A program made the position numbers and the translations under genes. Shown here one piece after another: positions 61,154 through 63,998 of a DNA stretch of 64,000 nucleotides. The DNA is from Escherichia coli. Its GTDB lineage: Bacteria; Pseudomonadota; Gammaproteobacteria; Enterobacterales; Enterobacteriaceae. Numbering within the stretch: position 1 is the stretch's first letter; each line of letters starts with the position of its first letter. The stretch lies in assembly GCF_003334335.1 (NCBI RefSeq), contig NZ_QOWQ01000021.1, one strand, 5' to 3'. Under the pieces are notes generated by a model. It ran no database searches and was not told where the DNA came from. It was given only the letters and a program-made list of their open reading frames with translations.

Positions 61154-61378
61154 ATGAGAACAGTCGAATCACCCGCAACCGCCAGACCAGTTAACCATCA
61201 TGCACATATCAGCATGGCCGCGAGAAAAGCCGAGCGTGCGCATATCTGCGAATTGCTCCGAGACCTGGTTAACACGGCGAAAGAGAAGCACTCCTCCCCG
61301 CTGGAAACCTGTTCAGCCATTGAACGACTGATTGCAACGCTCACGAACAACACCGAACTGAAGGGGTCAGCGCAATGA
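61154..61378 (+). CDS. Hypothetical protein (74 aa)
   Basis: AGGAG before the ATG; start overlaps the exonuclease gene. Confidence 0.45.
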   Translation: MRTVESPATARPVNHHAHISMAARKAERAHICELLRDLVNTAKEKHSSPLETCSAIERLIATLTNNTELKGSAQ

Positions 61379-61956
61379 ACCATCTCATGATTGACACCGA
61401 AACACTGGGTAACGGACCGGACGCAGCCATATTCGCGATCGGGGCGGTGTTTTTCGACCCGTTCACCGGAAAGCTGGGCAAGCAGTTTGAGAAATTCATC
61501 GACCCGGTAGATTCAGAACGCAACGGCGGAACCGTCAATGCAGCCACCGCTGTATGGTGGGCCGGACAATCCGTGGAGGCCAGATCCTGCCTGCGCAACG
61601 CAGAGGGAACAGAGCTTGCGGCAGTAACCGAATTTCTGGCGTTCATTTCACGCAATATGCATGACGAAAGCACGGGCAATTCACTGACCATATGGTGTAA
61701 GGGCGCATCCTTCGATTTCCCGATCCTGAAATCCGCCATAACACGCACAGCCGGAGAAAAAAGCATCCCCTGGTGCTACTGGAACGAGCGCTGTATGCGC
61801 CCGCTTATCGCCATGGCTGAATCAACTGGATGGAAAATGCCAGGCAGATCAGGAAAAGAGGCCATTGCTCACACCGCGCTGGGCGACGCCATTTACCAGG
61901 CAAAGGTCGTGTCAGAAATCTGGCAGCGCTTCACAACACCATTCCTGAACATATGA
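61375..61956 (+). CDS. DnaQ-like (DEDDh) 3'-5' exonuclease
   Basis: Exo I motif IDTETLG and C-terminal HTALGDA motif. Confidence 0.7.
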   Translation: MNHLMIDTETLGNGPDAAIFAIGAVFFDPFTGKLGKQFEKFIDPVDSERNGGTVNAATAVWWAGQSVEARSCLRNAEGTELAAVTEFLAFISRNMHDESTGNSLTIWCKGASFDFPILKSAITRTAGEKSIPWCYWNERCMRPLIAMAESTGWKMPGRSGKEAIAHTALGDAIYQAKVVSEIWQRFTTPFLNI

Positions 61957-61965
61957 GGTGAAGCC

Positions 61966-62193
61966 ATGGTCGCCATCCTGAATGTGTGTTGCTGCCCCCC
62001 CCTGAACGTGGAAAGAAAAGCCCGCGCATCGCTGCGTTTATTCCGCGACGGCGTGCGGAATTTTTCACGCATAAAACCCCACGACTACCTGGTAATAAGA
62101 ATCGGTTTCCGCTGGCGATTACTGAGCAAAAACAACGGGGCGTCATGGGATTTATTAACGCACGAAACCTATAACAAAGAGGCCGCGTTATGA
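61966..62193 (+). CDS. DUF4222-like small phage protein
   Basis: FRWRLLSKNNGASWDLLTHETYNKEA, paralogous to the 11747-11965 product. Confidence 0.55.
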   Translation: MVAILNVCCCPPLNVERKARASLRLFRDGVRNFSRIKPHDYLVIRIGFRWRLLSKNNGASWDLLTHETYNKEAAL

Positions 62194-63170
62194 GCAAAGA
62201 ACTGTTATCCGGTACGCCACTGAAATGGGTGGGCGGAAAAAGCCGCATCATGAACACACTGAAGGCGCACCTGCCAGAAGCCGACTGTCTGGTTGAGCCG
62301 TTCGTGGGCGGCGCATCGGTATTCATGAACACCAGTTACAAGCGTTACATCCTGGGTGATTCCAATGGTGCGCTGATTAATTTCTACCGGCAAGCTAGGG
62401 ACAACACCGACAGCCTGATCGACGAGGCGAAAACCCTGTTCCTGAACCACAACAACAGGGGTGACTATCTCATCATTCGCGAAACCTTTAACGCAGAGAA
62501 TCATGCCTTCCTGAACAGCAGAACGGGAATAAGCGACCGCCGTGAACTGCGACTGGCCGCCATGTTTTTGTACCTGAACCGACACAGCTTTAACGGTTTG
62601 TTCCGCGTGAACGGAAAAGGCGATTTTAACGTGCCTTTCGGCTGCTACCGCAAGCCCTACTTCCCTGAGCGTGAAATCCGCGCATTTGCAGACAAGGCAA
62701 ACAGCACCCGAACGCTGCTTATCCACGCAGATTTTAAGGATACGCTGAACTCTGCCAGTCACCTGTTCGGCATGGGCAACACGCTTTGCGTGTACTGCGA
62801 TCCCCCTTACCTGCAATTCAGTGGCCGGGACAATTTTACCGCCTACGGAAAACCATTCGATGAAGACGAGCACGTTCGTCTGAGGGCAGCGCTTGACCGC
62901 CTTTCACAGGAAACGGGCGGCATGACCAGCATCACCATCTCCAATTCCGACACACCGGAAACACGACGCATTTATCGGGGTTACCGGATGAACTGCATAC
63001 AGGCACCACGAAGCGTTGGCGCAAGAACCCGGGAATCAGCACCGGAGGTTATCGCCACCCTGAGACAGTGCGACGCCTGCGGTCACCATGGCGGTGGCTA
63101 CTGCCCGGACTGCGGACCTGTAACGGGAGATGCAACTTACAGCGTGATGTTTACCCCTGCCAGTACGTGA
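62190..63170 (+). CDS. Phage DNA adenine methyltransferase (Dam-like) with C-terminal Cys-rich zinc ribbon
   Basis: Motif I PFVGGASVF, motif IV DPPY; C-terminal CDACGHHGGGYCPDCG. Confidence 0.85.
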   Translation: MSKELLSGTPLKWVGGKSRIMNTLKAHLPEADCLVEPFVGGASVFMNTSYKRYILGDSNGALINFYRQARDNTDSLIDEAKTLFLNHNNRGDYLIIRETFNAENHAFLNSRTGISDRRELRLAAMFLYLNRHSFNGLFRVNGKGDFNVPFGCYRKPYFPEREIRAFADKANSTRTLLIHADFKDTLNSASHLFGMGNTLCVYCDPPYLQFSGRDNFTAYGKPFDEDEHVRLRAALDRLSQETGGMTSITISNSDTPETRRIYRGYRMNCIQAPRSVGARTRESAPEVIATLRQCDACGHHGGGYCPDCGPVTGDATYSVMFTPAST

Positions 63171-63205
63171 ATAAACAGATGAATCAGTAACACCGGAGTC
63201 AGGAA

Positions 63206-63442
63206 ATGAATAGCGAAAACAACAAAGAGCTTTTGCGGGAATTGCGTCTCATCGCCCGTGCACATGAGGAAGCAGCAAAAGTTATCGCTGCTGCTGGAAG
63301 ACCAGAGCTCGTTATCGCTTCAGCAATCTCACTGAGGATCACCATGGAAGCAATCCGGGTGATTCAGGATCAGGAAAGTGAAATCGCCACCCTTAAAAAG
63401 CAGCTCAACGAGAAATCTGCCGGGCAAAGGAGTCAGCAATGA
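63206..63442 (+). CDS. Hypothetical protein (78 aa)
   Basis: ORF. Confidence 0.45.
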   Translation: MNSENNKELLRELRLIARAHEEAAKVIAAAGRPELVIASAISLRITMEAIRVIQDQESEIATLKKQLNEKSAGQRSQQ

Positions 63443-63657
63443 TCCAGGAATCAACCGTTATCCGGTTCACAGCCAACGGCCGTCAGTACGAGGTAGACGA
63501 AGCCCTGATTGATTACAGCATGACCCGCCAGAGCTCACGCTTTCAGGACATGTACCACATCCGGCTAATCAACGGTTCGTCTTTCAACGCCACAAACGTG
63601 GAAGAAGTACGCGTGCTGACAGCAACACGCAACACGGGAGGTAAAGCGTGGCAGTGA
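63439..63657 (+). CDS. Hypothetical protein (72 aa)
   Basis: Start overlaps the upstream stop. Confidence 0.45.
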   Translation: MIQESTVIRFTANGRQYEVDEALIDYSMTRQSSRFQDMYHIRLINGSSFNATNVEEVRVLTATRNTGGKAWQ

Positions 63658-63998
63658 TTTATATCGCCGGCCCCATGACCGGATACGAAGACTGCAATAG
63701 AACGGCGTTTTGCCTGGAGGATCTGAAGCTTCGGTGCGCCGGAAACATCGTTCTTAATCCTGCCGTACTGCCTGACGGATTAAGCCAGCAGCAGTACATG
63801 AGTATTTGTATTCCGATGCTCATGTGTGCCGATGCCATTTACTTACTGGATGGATGGGAAGAATCCGCTGGCGCACGGGCTGAGTACGCAATGGCGCTCA
63901 AACTGAACATGCCAGTGTCATTCCCGGAAAACCGGGCAGCCGTCGAAACCGTCGCGCAGCTGCTTCACAAATCAAAAGCCACACAGGCGACTGAGTAA
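63648..63998 (+). CDS. DUF4406-like protein (nucleoside 2-deoxyribosyltransferase-like fold)
   Basis: N-terminus VIYIAGPMTGYEDCNRTAF and ...IYLLDGWEESAGARAEY. Confidence 0.6.
   Translation: MAVIYIAGPMTGYEDCNRTAFCLEDLKLRCAGNIVLNPAVLPDGLSQQQYMSICIPMLMCADAIYLLDGWEESAGARAEYAMALKLNMPVSFPENRAAVETVAQLLHKSKATQATE

What the first reader, a model, noticed from the sequence alone, without database searches (positions are those of the whole stretch)
61375..63998. Orphan Dam methylase with zinc ribbon, flanked by a DEDDh exonuclease and a DUF4406-like protein
The second prophage carries a Dam-type MTase (DPPY) without a cognate restriction enzyme nearby and with an extra C-terminal Cys cluster. Neighbours are a DnaQ-like exonuclease and a nucleoside deoxyribosyltransferase-like protein. 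Together these suggest a DNA-modification or anti-restriction cluster; the methylase may also change host GATC or other methylation when expressed.
Basis: partly seen in the sequence, partly recalled or inferred. Interest (0 to 1): 0.3.

Follow-up and report, generated by a model that had tools for sequence, protein, structure and literature searches.

The report
P2-like prophage orphan Dam cluster
This stretch is the accessory part of the early (replication) operon of a P2-family prophage in E. coli, carrying a GATC-type Dam methylase, a small 3'-5' exonuclease and a nucleoside-transferase-like protein; the arrangement is common and already annotated, and its one curiosity is a four-cysteine tail on the methylase that also occurs in the RecE recombination nuclease.

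Summary
Window 61375-63998 encodes, on the + strand:
- a DEDDh exonuclease (Pfam Rv2179c-like, 2.9e-51);
- a 326-aa Dam-family methylase (TIGR00571, 226 bits; DPPY at residues 204-207);
- two small ORFs;
- a DUF4406 protein (9.3e-32).

The methylase has a conserved extra C-terminal C-x2-C-x7-C-x2-C module. The DUF4406 model matches nucleoside 2-deoxyribosyltransferases.

All of these genes lie in the early rightward operon of a P2-like (Peduoviridae) prophage inserted next to yecA. They sit between the repressor/cox switch and the gpA replication gene. No restriction enzyme is present.

The same cluster occurs in 31 of 5426 complete E. coli genomes. Diverged copies occur in Klebsiella, Salmonella and Enterobacter P2-like phages.

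Six of the seven EcoDam residues that read GATC are identical and one is Tyr to Phe. Specificity is therefore predicted to equal that of the host Dam. The gene's position in a repressed lytic operon argues against methylome conversion in the lysogen. The cluster is ordinary.

One curiosity emerged. The Cys4 tail has no Pfam family. It recurs in Rac RecE (residues 517-548, 59% identity), in RecE-N/DEDDh-exonuclease fusions and in small early proteins of Mu-like and lambdoid phages.

The parts
56662..57738 (-). Prophage integrase at the left prophage end, next to host yecA (55640-56305). Context for the cluster.
   Evidence: ORF. Annotated 'phage integrase' at the same yecA site in E. coli EC2 (L007). 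The host flank is 99.2% identical to E. coli.
58814..59218 (-). HTH repressor of the prophage, transcribed divergently from the early operon. Context for the cluster.
   Evidence: ORF. Annotated 'transcriptional regulator' in L007. Divergent promoter-like sites at 59310-59283 (-) and 59228-59256 (+).
59228..59256 (+). Candidate early promoter (Pe-like), TTGACA-17-CAAAAT, upstream of the first + strand ORF of the operon that contains the cluster.
   Evidence: Consensus scan, 10 of 12 matches. This is a position-based inference only.
61130..61378 (+). Small early ORF of 82 aa with unknown function. Its stop overlaps the exonuclease start.
   Evidence: phrog_22206, 4.7e-46.
61375..61956 (+). DEDDh 3'-5' exonuclease (Rv2179c-like family).
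   Evidence: Pfam PF16473, 2.9e-51. PHROG 255. PDB 8KEN, 5.6e-11. D7, E9, D113, H166, D171. 39% identical to the C-terminal nuclease of RecE-N fusion proteins.
61966..62193 (+). ParE-like small protein of 75 aa. Its stop overlaps the Dam start codon (ATGA).
   Evidence: Pfam ParE_like PF24732, 1.2e-17. phrog_1525, 5.5e-27. 60% identical to gp10 at the same position in Klebsiella phage ST16-OXA48phi5.4. Sequence read.
62190..63170 (+). Orphan Dam-family N6-adenine DNA methyltransferase, predicted to target GATC.
   Evidence: A 99% identical RefSeq protein cluster exists (P0001).
62799..62810 (+). Codons for the catalytic motif IV, DPPY (residues 204-207).
63060..63158 (+). Codons for the C-terminal Cys4 module (residues 291-323, LRQCDACGHHGGGYCPDCGPVTGDATYSVMF), a putative zinc ribbon.
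   Evidence: Conserved in orthologues. Shared with Rac RecE residues 517-548, with phrog_20376 and with other architectures. Only weak PDB matches, all to zinc ribbons.
63206..63442 (+). Small ORF of 78 aa, function unknown.
   Evidence: phrog_23826, 3.2e-53.
63439..63657 (+). Small ORF of 72 aa, function unknown.
   Evidence: phrog_3459, 2.2e-32.
63648..63998 (+). DUF4406 protein with a nucleoside 2-deoxyribosyltransferase-like fold.
   Evidence: Pfam 9.3e-32. PHROG 355. Model pLDDT 86. Foldseek top hits are NDTs, MilB and DNPH1. Invariant S73, G75 and E79.

Best explanation
The interval is the accessory middle section of the early lytic operon of a P2-like (Peduoviridae) prophage integrated beside yecA in E. 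coli. On infection or induction the operon is read from the early promoter next to the repressor gene, through cox-like and small genes, then the DEDDh exonuclease, the ParE-like ORF, Dam, two small ORFs and DUF4406, and on towards the gpA rolling-circle replication nuclease.

The methylase is a stand-alone Dam that methylates the adenine of GATC, the same motif as the host enzyme. Its most likely job is to keep the roughly 100 GATC sites of the fast-replicating phage genome fully methylated when host Dam is limiting. Progeny DNA would then be protected from GATC-methylation-sensitive restriction in the next host and from MutH nicking at unmethylated or hemimethylated sites.

The exonuclease and the NDT-like protein are separate DNA or nucleotide-metabolism helpers. 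They are not partners in a modification pathway. The Cys4 tail is a small zinc-ribbon-like add-on that phages attach to several early DNA enzymes. It most probably tethers the enzyme to DNA or to a shared partner.

What is shown: gene identities, motifs, operon position, orphan status, distribution and the sharing of the module. What is inferred: GATC specificity, timing of expression, and the protective role.
For: Identity and motifs.

P2-like context:
- The cluster is 95% identical in E. coli MSB1_4I and EC2.
- There it is followed by the 'replication endonuclease' (gpA), SSB, portal, terminase, the P2-family capsid, and tail and baseplate genes.
- EC2 carries it at the same yecA site.

Related cultured phages:
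- Klebsiella Reipivirus ST16-OXA48phi5.4 has the order exonuclease, 75-aa ORF, Dam, gpA.
- Klebsiella 3LV2017 has exonuclease, Dam, gpA.
- Salmonella SI7 has Dam upstream of gpA.

Single operon: the ORFs are tightly packed or overlapping on the + strand. There is a promoter-like site at 59228-59256. No terminator-like site occurs on the + strand after 60312, and no + strand promoter-like site lies near Dam.

Orphan status: no REase. The best PADLOC model is oMTase.

GATC prediction:
- EcoDam K9, Y119, N120, L122, R124, P134 and Y138 (roles from PMC4417163) align to K12, F134, N135, L137, R139, P149 and Y153.
- The next best solved relative is the GATC enzyme DpnM (2DPM, 1.6e-35).

GATC is not avoided in the prophage: 3.4-3.5 sites per kb, observed/expected about 0.9, similar to the host flank.

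A prophage-encoded Dam homologue in E. coli ST131 was not transcribed in the lysogen (PMC4659465).
Against: - No methylation or expression data exist for this gene.
- The score against the housekeeping-Dam equivalog model is below its cutoff (217.6 against 441). It is therefore not the host orthologue, and a shifted or relaxed specificity cannot be excluded from sequence alone.
- R137 of EcoDam is Cys here.
- E. coli hosts are already Dam+, so the benefit of a second GATC methylase is inferred from general knowledge of undermethylation of rapidly replicating phage DNA. It was not shown here.
- The promoter and terminator scans are consensus matches at about the rate seen in shuffled sequence.
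- The role of the Cys4 tail is unknown. The Dam model was too poor to show it (pLDDT below 50 in the tail).
- One related phage Dam lacks the cysteines (3LV2017), so the tail is dispensable at least there.
Confidence: 0.7

Rival explanations
1. Lysogenic-conversion methylase. The prophage Dam is expressed in the lysogen and adds a new methylation motif, or alters GATC methylation of the host chromosome, changing host gene expression.
For: - It is only 38% identical to host Dam.
- It falls below the housekeeping-Dam equivalog cutoff.
- It has an extra domain.
- Phage-borne methylases can reshape host transcription, as with M.EcoGIII cited in PMC4659465.
Against: - The GATC-contact residues are conserved.
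- The gene sits inside the repressor-controlled early operon with no promoter-like site of its own.
- A prophage Dam homologue in ST131 was silent in the lysogen and no motif could be assigned to it.
- The host already methylates GATC.
Confidence: 0.1
2. Coordinated DNA-hypermodification pathway. DUF4406 (base exchange or N-glycosidase), the exonuclease and Dam act together to install a non-canonical base in phage DNA as an anti-restriction measure.
For: - DUF4406 has the fold of nucleoside 2-deoxyribosyltransferases and of the hmCMP and hmdUMP N-glycosidases MilB and DNPH1.
- It has an invariant S-x-G-x3-E.
- The three genes are co-transcribed.
Against: - The three genes are not a fixed unit. 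The Klebsiella phages have exonuclease and Dam without DUF4406, and SI7 has Dam without the exonuclease.
- No other modification enzymes (hydroxymethylase, kinase, glycosyl- or amino-transferase, DpdA or QueC type) are in the operon of the sister prophages.
- DUF4406 occurs very widely on its own in enterobacterial prophages.
Confidence: 0.05
3. Remnant or part of a defence system. The methylase is the modification half of a type II R-M system or a PD-Lambda-5-like system whose nuclease is nearby or was recently lost.
For: D12 methylases are common in type II R-M systems. There are weaker PADLOC hits to MTase_II (1.5e-71) and PD-Lambda-5_B (3.5e-13).
Against: - The best PADLOC model is the orphan MTase (8.6e-76).
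- Every neighbouring ORF is accounted for as a phage early gene family.
- The same orphan layout is conserved from E. coli to Klebsiella, Salmonella and Enterobacter P2-like phages.
- In P2-like phages the known defence hotspots lie elsewhere (general knowledge, not tested here).
Confidence: 0.03
4. Same enzyme, different purpose. The phage Dam mainly serves phage replication or regulation rather than protection from restriction. Examples would be methylation-dependent control of the origin, gpA or late promoters, or avoidance of mismatch repair during recombination with the exonuclease.
For: - It is placed immediately upstream of the replication genes in all relatives.
- Its Cys4 module is shared with the recombination nucleases RecE and RecE-N/DEDDh fusions.
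- Lambdoid Rec modules are reported to encode DnaQ-like nucleases (PMC12315714).
Against: - P2 itself has no methylase (statement in PMC3091744), so methylation is not a general requirement of P2-type replication.
- No GATC clustering near a recognisable origin was examined or seen. GATC density is uniform and ordinary.
Confidence: 0.2

Closest known systems
E. coli Dam (EcoDam, PDB 2G1P) and the Dam family (TIGR00571), which includes phage T4 Dam and DpnM
   Same: - Same D12 alpha-class fold order: FxGxG, then the target-recognition region, then DPPY.
- 38% identity over residues 11-292.
- Six of seven GATC-contact residues identical and one Tyr to Phe.
- Orphan, with no partner nuclease.
   Different: - It is not the housekeeping orthologue (217.6 bits against a cutoff of 441).
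- It is phage-borne in an early lytic operon.
- It carries a roughly 35-residue Cys4 tail in place of the short EcoDam C-terminus.
- R137 is Cys here.
Dam genes of cultured P2-like phages: Klebsiella phage ST16-OXA48phi5.4 gp09-gp11 (Reipivirus), Salmonella phage SI7 gp32, Enterobacter phage phiT5282H dam
   Same: - Same position in the early operon upstream of gpA.
- Same Cys4 tail.
- In the Klebsiella phage, the same trio of exonuclease, 75-aa ParE-like ORF and Dam.
   Different: - Only 47-51% protein identity.
- No DNA-level match in the phage collection for this part of the window.
- These phages lack the DUF4406 gene at this place.
- SI7 lacks the exonuclease and has a second methylase instead.
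Rac prophage RecE (exonuclease VIII), residues 517-548
   Same: Carries the same Cys4 module, [28 protein letters not shown]. It is 59% identical over 32 residues, pairwise E = 5e-12.
   Different: In RecE the module lies in a linker between the Exonuc_VIII N-terminal domain and the PD-(D/E)XK nuclease. In Dam it is the C-terminus. The rest of the two proteins is unrelated.
Rv2179c-like DEDDh exonucleases; the closest solved relative is the 227-aa PDB 'exodeoxyribonuclease' 8KEN/8KEL (probably T4 DexA, from memory)
   Same: Full-length Pfam match with all five DEDDh residues present.
   Different: The substrate (DNA or RNA, oligonucleotides or ends) is unknown here. In lambdoid prophages the same domain is fused behind RecE-N plus the Cys4 module, whereas here it is a separate gene.
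Nucleoside 2-deoxyribosyltransferases, MilB/BcmB CMP N-glycosidases and DNPH1
   Same: Same fold for the DUF4406 model (TM 0.6-0.65 normalised to the query, probability 1.0). It has a conserved Gly-rich N-terminal loop YIAGP and S-x-G-x3-E, with an invariant Glu where these enzymes have their nucleophile.
   Different: - Only 16-24% identity.
- Much shorter (116 against about 150 aa).
- No sequence-level PDB match.
- No biochemical data. The library search found only 3 papers that mention DUF4406, none functional.

Membership tests
Dam family / D12-class N6-adenine DNA methyltransferase | Profile match above the curated threshold | tested here: met
   TIGR00571, 225.9 bits against a cutoff of 114.85. 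PF02086, 1.8e-51.
Dam family / D12-class N6-adenine DNA methyltransferase | AdoMet-binding motif I (FxGxG) N-terminal to catalytic motif IV (DPPY), with the target-recognition region between them (alpha order) | tested here: met
   FVGGA at 38-42. NGLFR/NVPFGCY recognition loop at 135-153. DPPY at 204-207.
Dam family / D12-class N6-adenine DNA methyltransferase | Residues that read GATC in EcoDam (K9, Y119, N120, L122, R124, P134, Y138) | tested here: met
   They align to K12, F134, N135, L137, R139, P149 and Y153. Six are identical and one is Tyr to Phe.
Dam family / D12-class N6-adenine DNA methyltransferase | m6A methylation of GATC in vivo or in vitro | not testable with these tools
   Needs a methylome or an enzyme assay.
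Housekeeping Dam orthologue (NF008152 equivalog) | Score above the equivalog cutoff | tested here: not met
   217.6 bits against a cutoff of 441. It is a paralogous phage lineage.
Orphan (solitary) methyltransferase | No cognate restriction endonuclease in the same locus | tested here: met
   Neighbours identified. Annotated sister prophages have no REase. Best PADLOC model is oMTase.
P2-like (Peduoviridae) prophage, early operon | Integrase and repressor leftward; cox-like and accessory genes then the gpA replication nuclease rightward; P2-type capsid, terminase and tail genes | tested here: met
   The left part is seen in the window. The remainder is seen in sister prophages with 95% identity over the cluster. 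The window ends before gpA.
DEDDh (DnaQ-like) 3'-5' exonuclease, Rv2179c-like | Pfam match plus the D-x-E, D and H-x4-D catalytic residues | tested here: met
   PF16473, 2.9e-51. D7, E9, D113, H166 and D171.
DEDDh (DnaQ-like) 3'-5' exonuclease, Rv2179c-like | Exonuclease activity and substrate | not testable with these tools
DUF4406 / nucleoside 2-deoxyribosyltransferase-like superfamily | Profile match and NDT-type flavodoxin-like fold | tested here: met
   PF14359, 9.3e-32. Model pLDDT 86. Top Foldseek hits are NDTs, MilB and DNPH1.
DUF4406 / nucleoside 2-deoxyribosyltransferase-like superfamily | Catalytic glutamate nucleophile | tested here: inconclusive
   E79 is invariant within S-x-G-x3-E, at the place expected from the family pattern. 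I did not obtain a residue-level structural superposition.
Zinc ribbon | Two CxxC knuckles, conserved | tested here: met
   C294, C297, C305 and C308 are at least 90% conserved. The only weak PDB and Pfam matches are to zinc ribbons: TFIIB, LysW, Zn_ribbon_3.
Zinc ribbon | Folded beta-hairpin knuckles binding a metal | tested here: inconclusive
   The AlphaFold model of Dam has pLDDT below 50 over residues 289-326. Metal binding is not testable.
ParE/RelE toxin-antitoxin module | ParE-like toxin domain | tested here: met
   PF24732, 1.2e-17.
ParE/RelE toxin-antitoxin module | Adjacent small antitoxin gene | tested here: not met
   The flanking genes are the exonuclease (9 bases upstream) and Dam (4-base overlap). 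No candidate antitoxin ORF is present. No PADLOC or NCBIfam match.

The most novel reading that the evidence does not exclude
The Cys4 tail of this Dam (consensus CxxCGxxGGGxCPDCGxVMGDATY) is an undescribed, mobile zinc-ribbon mini-domain. Temperate enterobacterial phages of the P2-like, Rac/lambdoid and Mu-like groups graft it onto unrelated early DNA enzymes: Dam, the RecE PD-(D/E)XK nuclease, DEDDh exonucleases and small stand-alone proteins. In this reading it acts as a common address tag that docks these enzymes onto one shared target, such as a host replisome or repair component or a particular DNA structure. That would link methylation, end-resection and 3'-5' trimming at the same site. 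The neighbouring Dam and DEDDh exonuclease genes in this window would then be the split version of what Rac-like prophages encode as module-plus-exonuclease fusions.
Probability: 0.2. Interest if true: 0.45.

Novelty: new member of a known kind. Interest (0 to 1): 0.2.

Why it matters
As it stands it matters little. It is one more orphan Dam in a P2-family prophage, correctly named by automatic annotation. It is predicted to duplicate the host's GATC specificity and to be silent in the lysogen.

Three practical points follow:
- Prophage Dam copies like this one should not be assumed to add motifs to E. coli methylomes.
- The cluster is a conserved accessory block of enterobacterial P2-like phages and could be deleted or tested as a unit.
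- The Cys4 module gives a handle on the long-unexplained N-terminal and linker region of full-length RecE, if someone finds what it binds.

Tried and rejected
1. AlphaFold model of the whole Dam from a 22-sequence alignment. Mean pLDDT was 53.9 and the tail was below 50. It was unusable for the zinc-ribbon question and I did not take it to a fold search.
2. PDB sequence searches:
   - DUF4406 gave only a chance match.
   - The ParE-like ORF gave none.
   - The Cys4 profile gave only weak generic zinc-ribbon hits.
3. Megablast of the prophage left arm against the cultured-phage collection. Only the integrase/repressor end matched (phage 520873, 87%). Nothing matched over the Dam cluster, so relatives had to be found at protein level.
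4. The representative search with the Cys4 profile also returned many giant proteins with 5-18 partial matches. Inspection showed cysteine-free repeats of the form '...GWTPE..VTGDATYTA.F' that match only the second half of the profile. I rejected them as unrelated.
5. Literature searches. No paper was found on DUF4406 function, or on a zinc site in RecE. One search was wasted because 'RecE' matched 'receptor'. The original EcoDam structure paper is not held, so I used the 2015 NAR paper for the contact residues.
6. GATC avoidance in the prophage as a sign of restriction pressure. None was seen.
7. Defence-system reading. PADLOC gave nothing for the ParE-like ORF, DUF4406 or the 214-aa ORF next to the repressor.

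
Full report
WHAT IS THERE. The ORF list for 56-64 kb shows an uninterrupted series of + strand ORFs from 59294 to the window end, many with overlapping stop and start codons.
- 61375-61956 (193 aa);
- 61966-62193 (75 aa);
- 62190-63170 (326 aa);
- 63206-63442 (78 aa);
- 63439-63657 (72 aa);
- 63648-63998 (116 aa).

The profile searches are unambiguous.
- The 193-aa protein is an Rv2179c-like DEDDh exonuclease (PF16473, 2.9e-51; PHROG 255). Its closest solved relative is a 227-aa exodeoxyribonuclease, 8KEN (5.6e-11).
- The 326-aa protein is a D12-class Dam-family methyltransferase (PF02086, 1.8e-51; TIGR00571, 225.9 bits against a cutoff of 114.85; EcoDam 2G1P, 8.8e-52).
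- The 116-aa protein is DUF4406 (9.3e-32).

It is a ParE-like domain protein (PF24732, 1.2e-17), preceded by GAGGTGA, and its stop overlaps the Dam ATG.

WHERE IT SITS. The host flank (tyrP, yecA and neighbours) is 99.2% identical to E. coli, and that flank is present in all 5426 genomes searched. The elements then run as follows:
- an integrase on the minus strand directly after yecA (56662-57738);
- two minus-strand ORFs;
- an HTH repressor (58814-59218);
- divergent promoter-like sites at 59228-59256 (+) and 59310-59283 (-);
- the + strand operon.

The 3-kb cluster is present at 80-95% identity in 31 of 5426 complete E. coli genomes, always chromosomal. In MSB1_4I (L001) and EC2 (L007) the same gene order continues into a 'replication endonuclease' (gpA), SSB, portal, terminase, GPO scaffold, 'major capsid protein, P2 family', gpM, and lysis, tail and baseplate genes. 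EC2 has the prophage at the same yecA site. This is a P2-like (Peduoviridae) prophage, and the interval is the accessory middle of its early rightward operon. No + strand terminator-like site follows 60312, and no + strand promoter-like site lies near Dam. These scans are weak evidence, at about the rate seen in shuffled sequence. No restriction endonuclease is annotated anywhere in the sister prophages, and the best PADLOC model for the methylase is 'orphan methyltransferase' (8.6e-76).

RELATIVES.
- At DNA level no cultured phage matches the cluster.
- At protein level the Dam hits 1048 phage records. The best, at 47-51% identity, are P2-like phages of Klebsiella, Salmonella and Enterobacter.
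- Klebsiella phage ST16-OXA48phi5.4 (Reipivirus) has exoribonuclease, a 75-aa ORF (60% identical to ours), Dam, then gpA.
- Klebsiella phage 3LV2017 has exonuclease, Dam, gpA.
- Salmonella SI7 has Dam, a small ORF, a second methylase, then gpA.
- The big protein database holds a 99%-identical cluster with 425 member sequences, already named 'Dam family site-specific DNA-(adenine-N6)-methyltransferase'.
- DUF4406 homologues are abundant in enterobacterial prophages.

The components are thus common, shuffled accessory genes of this phage family. P2 itself has no methylase (statement in PMC3091744).

SPECIFICITY AND EXPRESSION. The methylase is 38% identical to K-12 Dam over residues 11-292. The 2015 EcoDam structure paper (PMC4417163) assigns these roles:
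- R124 contacts the Gua of the fourth base pair and is the main discriminator.
- Y119 intercalates.
- N120 makes a base hydrogen bond.
- L122 and P134 make base contacts.
- K9 and Y138 recognise the first base pair.

In the HMMER and BLAST alignments these residues correspond to R139, F134, N135, L137, P149, K12 and Y153. Six are identical and one is a conservative aromatic change. Position 134 is Phe or Tyr among the orthologues. The next-best solved relative is DpnM, also a GATC enzyme. I therefore predict GATC. This is an inference from conserved contacts, not a measurement. The host, being E. coli, already methylates GATC (established knowledge).

The gene lies in the operon that the prophage repressor should silence. 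A published ST131 study found its prophage-encoded Dam homologue untranscribed in the lysogen and could assign it no motif (PMC4659465). That is an analogous case, and I did not establish orthology. GATC is neither avoided nor enriched in the prophage: 3.4-3.5 sites per kb, observed/expected about 0.9, like the host flank.

MOST LIKELY FUNCTION. Expressed early in lytic growth, the enzyme would top up GATC methylation on rapidly replicating phage DNA when the host enzyme is limiting (general knowledge of undermethylated phage DNA; inference here). This would give protection against methylation-sensitive GATC restriction in later hosts and against MutH incision. A replication or recombination-linked role is a reasonable alternative, given the position next to gpA and the exonuclease. 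The exonuclease and DUF4406 are not obligatory partners of Dam, because relatives carry them in different combinations.

DUF4406. A 40-sequence alignment gave a confident model (pLDDT 86.4). Its best solved matches are nucleoside 2-deoxyribosyltransferases (2A0K, 6EVS, 8QC0; TM 0.62-0.65 on the query), the CMP/hmCMP N-glycosidase MilB, and DNPH1. Invariant residues include Y5, G8, P9, S73, G75 and E79. This fits the Gly-rich loop and glutamate nucleophile of that superfamily, though I did not obtain a residue-level superposition. The substrate is unknown, and I found no functional literature.

THE CYS4 TAIL. EcoDam ends where the prophage enzyme continues with LRQCDACGHHGGGYCPDCGPVTGDATYSVMF. 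In 21 orthologues that are otherwise about 50% identical, the four Cys, the Gly run, P306, D307 and Y317 are invariant or nearly so. Pfam has no family for it. Three independent profile hits pointed elsewhere:
- NCBIfam exodeoxyribonuclease VIII, positions 526-556 (5.3e-05);
- PHROG 20376 'exonuclease', positions 256-285, which lie upstream of that profile's Rv2179c-like part (2.8e-08);
- a direct comparison with K-12 RecE, which gives 19 of 32 identities at residues 517-548 (E = 5e-12).

A 33-column profile (A2) searched against 1.84 billion representatives gave 112 hits. About 35 of these are single, full-length matches in several architectures:
- D12 methylase plus module;
- Exonuc_VIII N-domain, module, then DUF3799 PD-(D/E)XK nuclease (RecE proper);
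- Exonuc_VIII N-domain, module, then an Rv2179c-like exonuclease that is 39% identical to the exonuclease in this window;
- RecE-N, module, then a short hydrophobic C-terminus;
- small proteins of 79-190 aa ending in the module.

Two of the small proteins lie in early regions of other temperate phages. One is next to Kil, GemA and DUF3164, which is Mu-like. The other is next to RdgC, RecT and an integrase. The PDB holds no such module. The only weak matches are zinc ribbons: TFIIB, LysW and RpoM. The remaining hits are cysteine-free repeat proteins that match only 'VTGDATYTAxF', and I discard them. One cultured phage (3LV2017) has a Dam whose tail lacks the cysteines, so the module is dispensable there.

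A recent survey of lambdoid Rec modules notes DnaQ-like nucleases, nuclease-less 'RecE-2' proteins and probable shuffling of partner-interaction domains (PMC12315714). It does not mention this module. I read the module as a mobile zinc-ribbon-like mini-domain of unknown role. This is the only element of the finding that may be undescribed.

COMPARISON AND VERDICT. The locus works like, and passes the sequence-level tests for, an orphan Dam-family methylase of a P2-like phage. It fails the equivalog test for the housekeeping Dam, as expected for a phage paralogue. The ParE-like ORF passes the domain test but lacks an antitoxin neighbour, so I do not file it as a toxin-antitoxin system. Overall the finding is real but ordinary. 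It is a new (uncharacterised, yet already annotated) member of a well-known kind. I set interest at 0.2, with the shared Cys4 module as a modest lead.

Noticed in passing
window 63060-63158 (Dam residues 291-323); L004 recE residues 517-548; P0126-P0198: The Dam Cys4 tail is a mobile mini-domain with no Pfam family. It is shared with Rac RecE, with RecE-N/DEDDh-exonuclease fusions, and with small early proteins of Mu-like and lambdoid prophages.
   Followed up: yes
window 61966-62193 (+): A 75-aa ParE-like domain ORF (PF24732) is translationally coupled to Dam (ATGA overlap). It has no antitoxin-sized neighbour. It is conserved at the same place in Klebsiella phage ST16-OXA48phi5.4 (60% identity).
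   Followed up: partly
window 58154-58798 (-): A 214-aa ORF with a hydrophobic C-terminus lies just downstream of the prophage repressor, between repressor and integrase. That position is typical for lysogen-expressed cargo. It has no PADLOC match, and it is 'hypothetical' in E. coli EC2.
   Followed up: partly
window 2285-2931: Rfam finds AsxR (anti-stx2 sRNA), STnc100 and three tRNA genes clustered on a lambdoid prophage at the window start. ARAGORN calls two tRNA-Arg. The first 20 kb are about 95% identical to prophage regions of E. coli O157/STEC genomes. I did not check for stx genes.
   Followed up: no
window 56305-56662: No tRNA gene is detected between yecA and the prophage integrase, so the attachment site here is not an intact tRNA next to int. 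The att core was not mapped, because the right prophage end is outside the window.
   Followed up: no
L009 3001-3984 (Klebsiella phage 3LV2017 Dam): This Dam orthologue has a tail of similar length but without the four cysteines (...LRGDVGRNSGACGAWTSTIE...), then rejoins the usual C-terminal 'GFD..GFDNGEP' sequence. This looks like a local frameshift or replacement of the module.
   Followed up: partly
P0121-P0125, P0142 and similar hits: Giant cysteine-free repeat proteins carry many copies of '...F.GWTPE....VTGDATYTA.F'. This resembles the second half of the Cys4 module. I judged it unrelated, or convergent at most.
   Followed up: partly
L003 4486-9948 (Salmonella phage SI7): This P2-like phage carries two differently typed DNA methyltransferase genes in tandem upstream of gpA, and a third downstream. 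Methylase stacking is therefore common in this operon position.
   Followed up: no
L001 37407-39344; L007 37408-39378: Sister prophages carry a roughly 650-aa DUF6645 protein inserted after the lysis genes. The same annotation name appears in the lambdoid prophage region matching window 1-20000.
   Followed up: no
window 23902-24209, 38200-38277, 19924-19966: Host sRNA genes are found by Rfam at gathering score: MicL, C0465 and ES036. These are ordinary chromosomal features between the two prophages.
   Followed up: no
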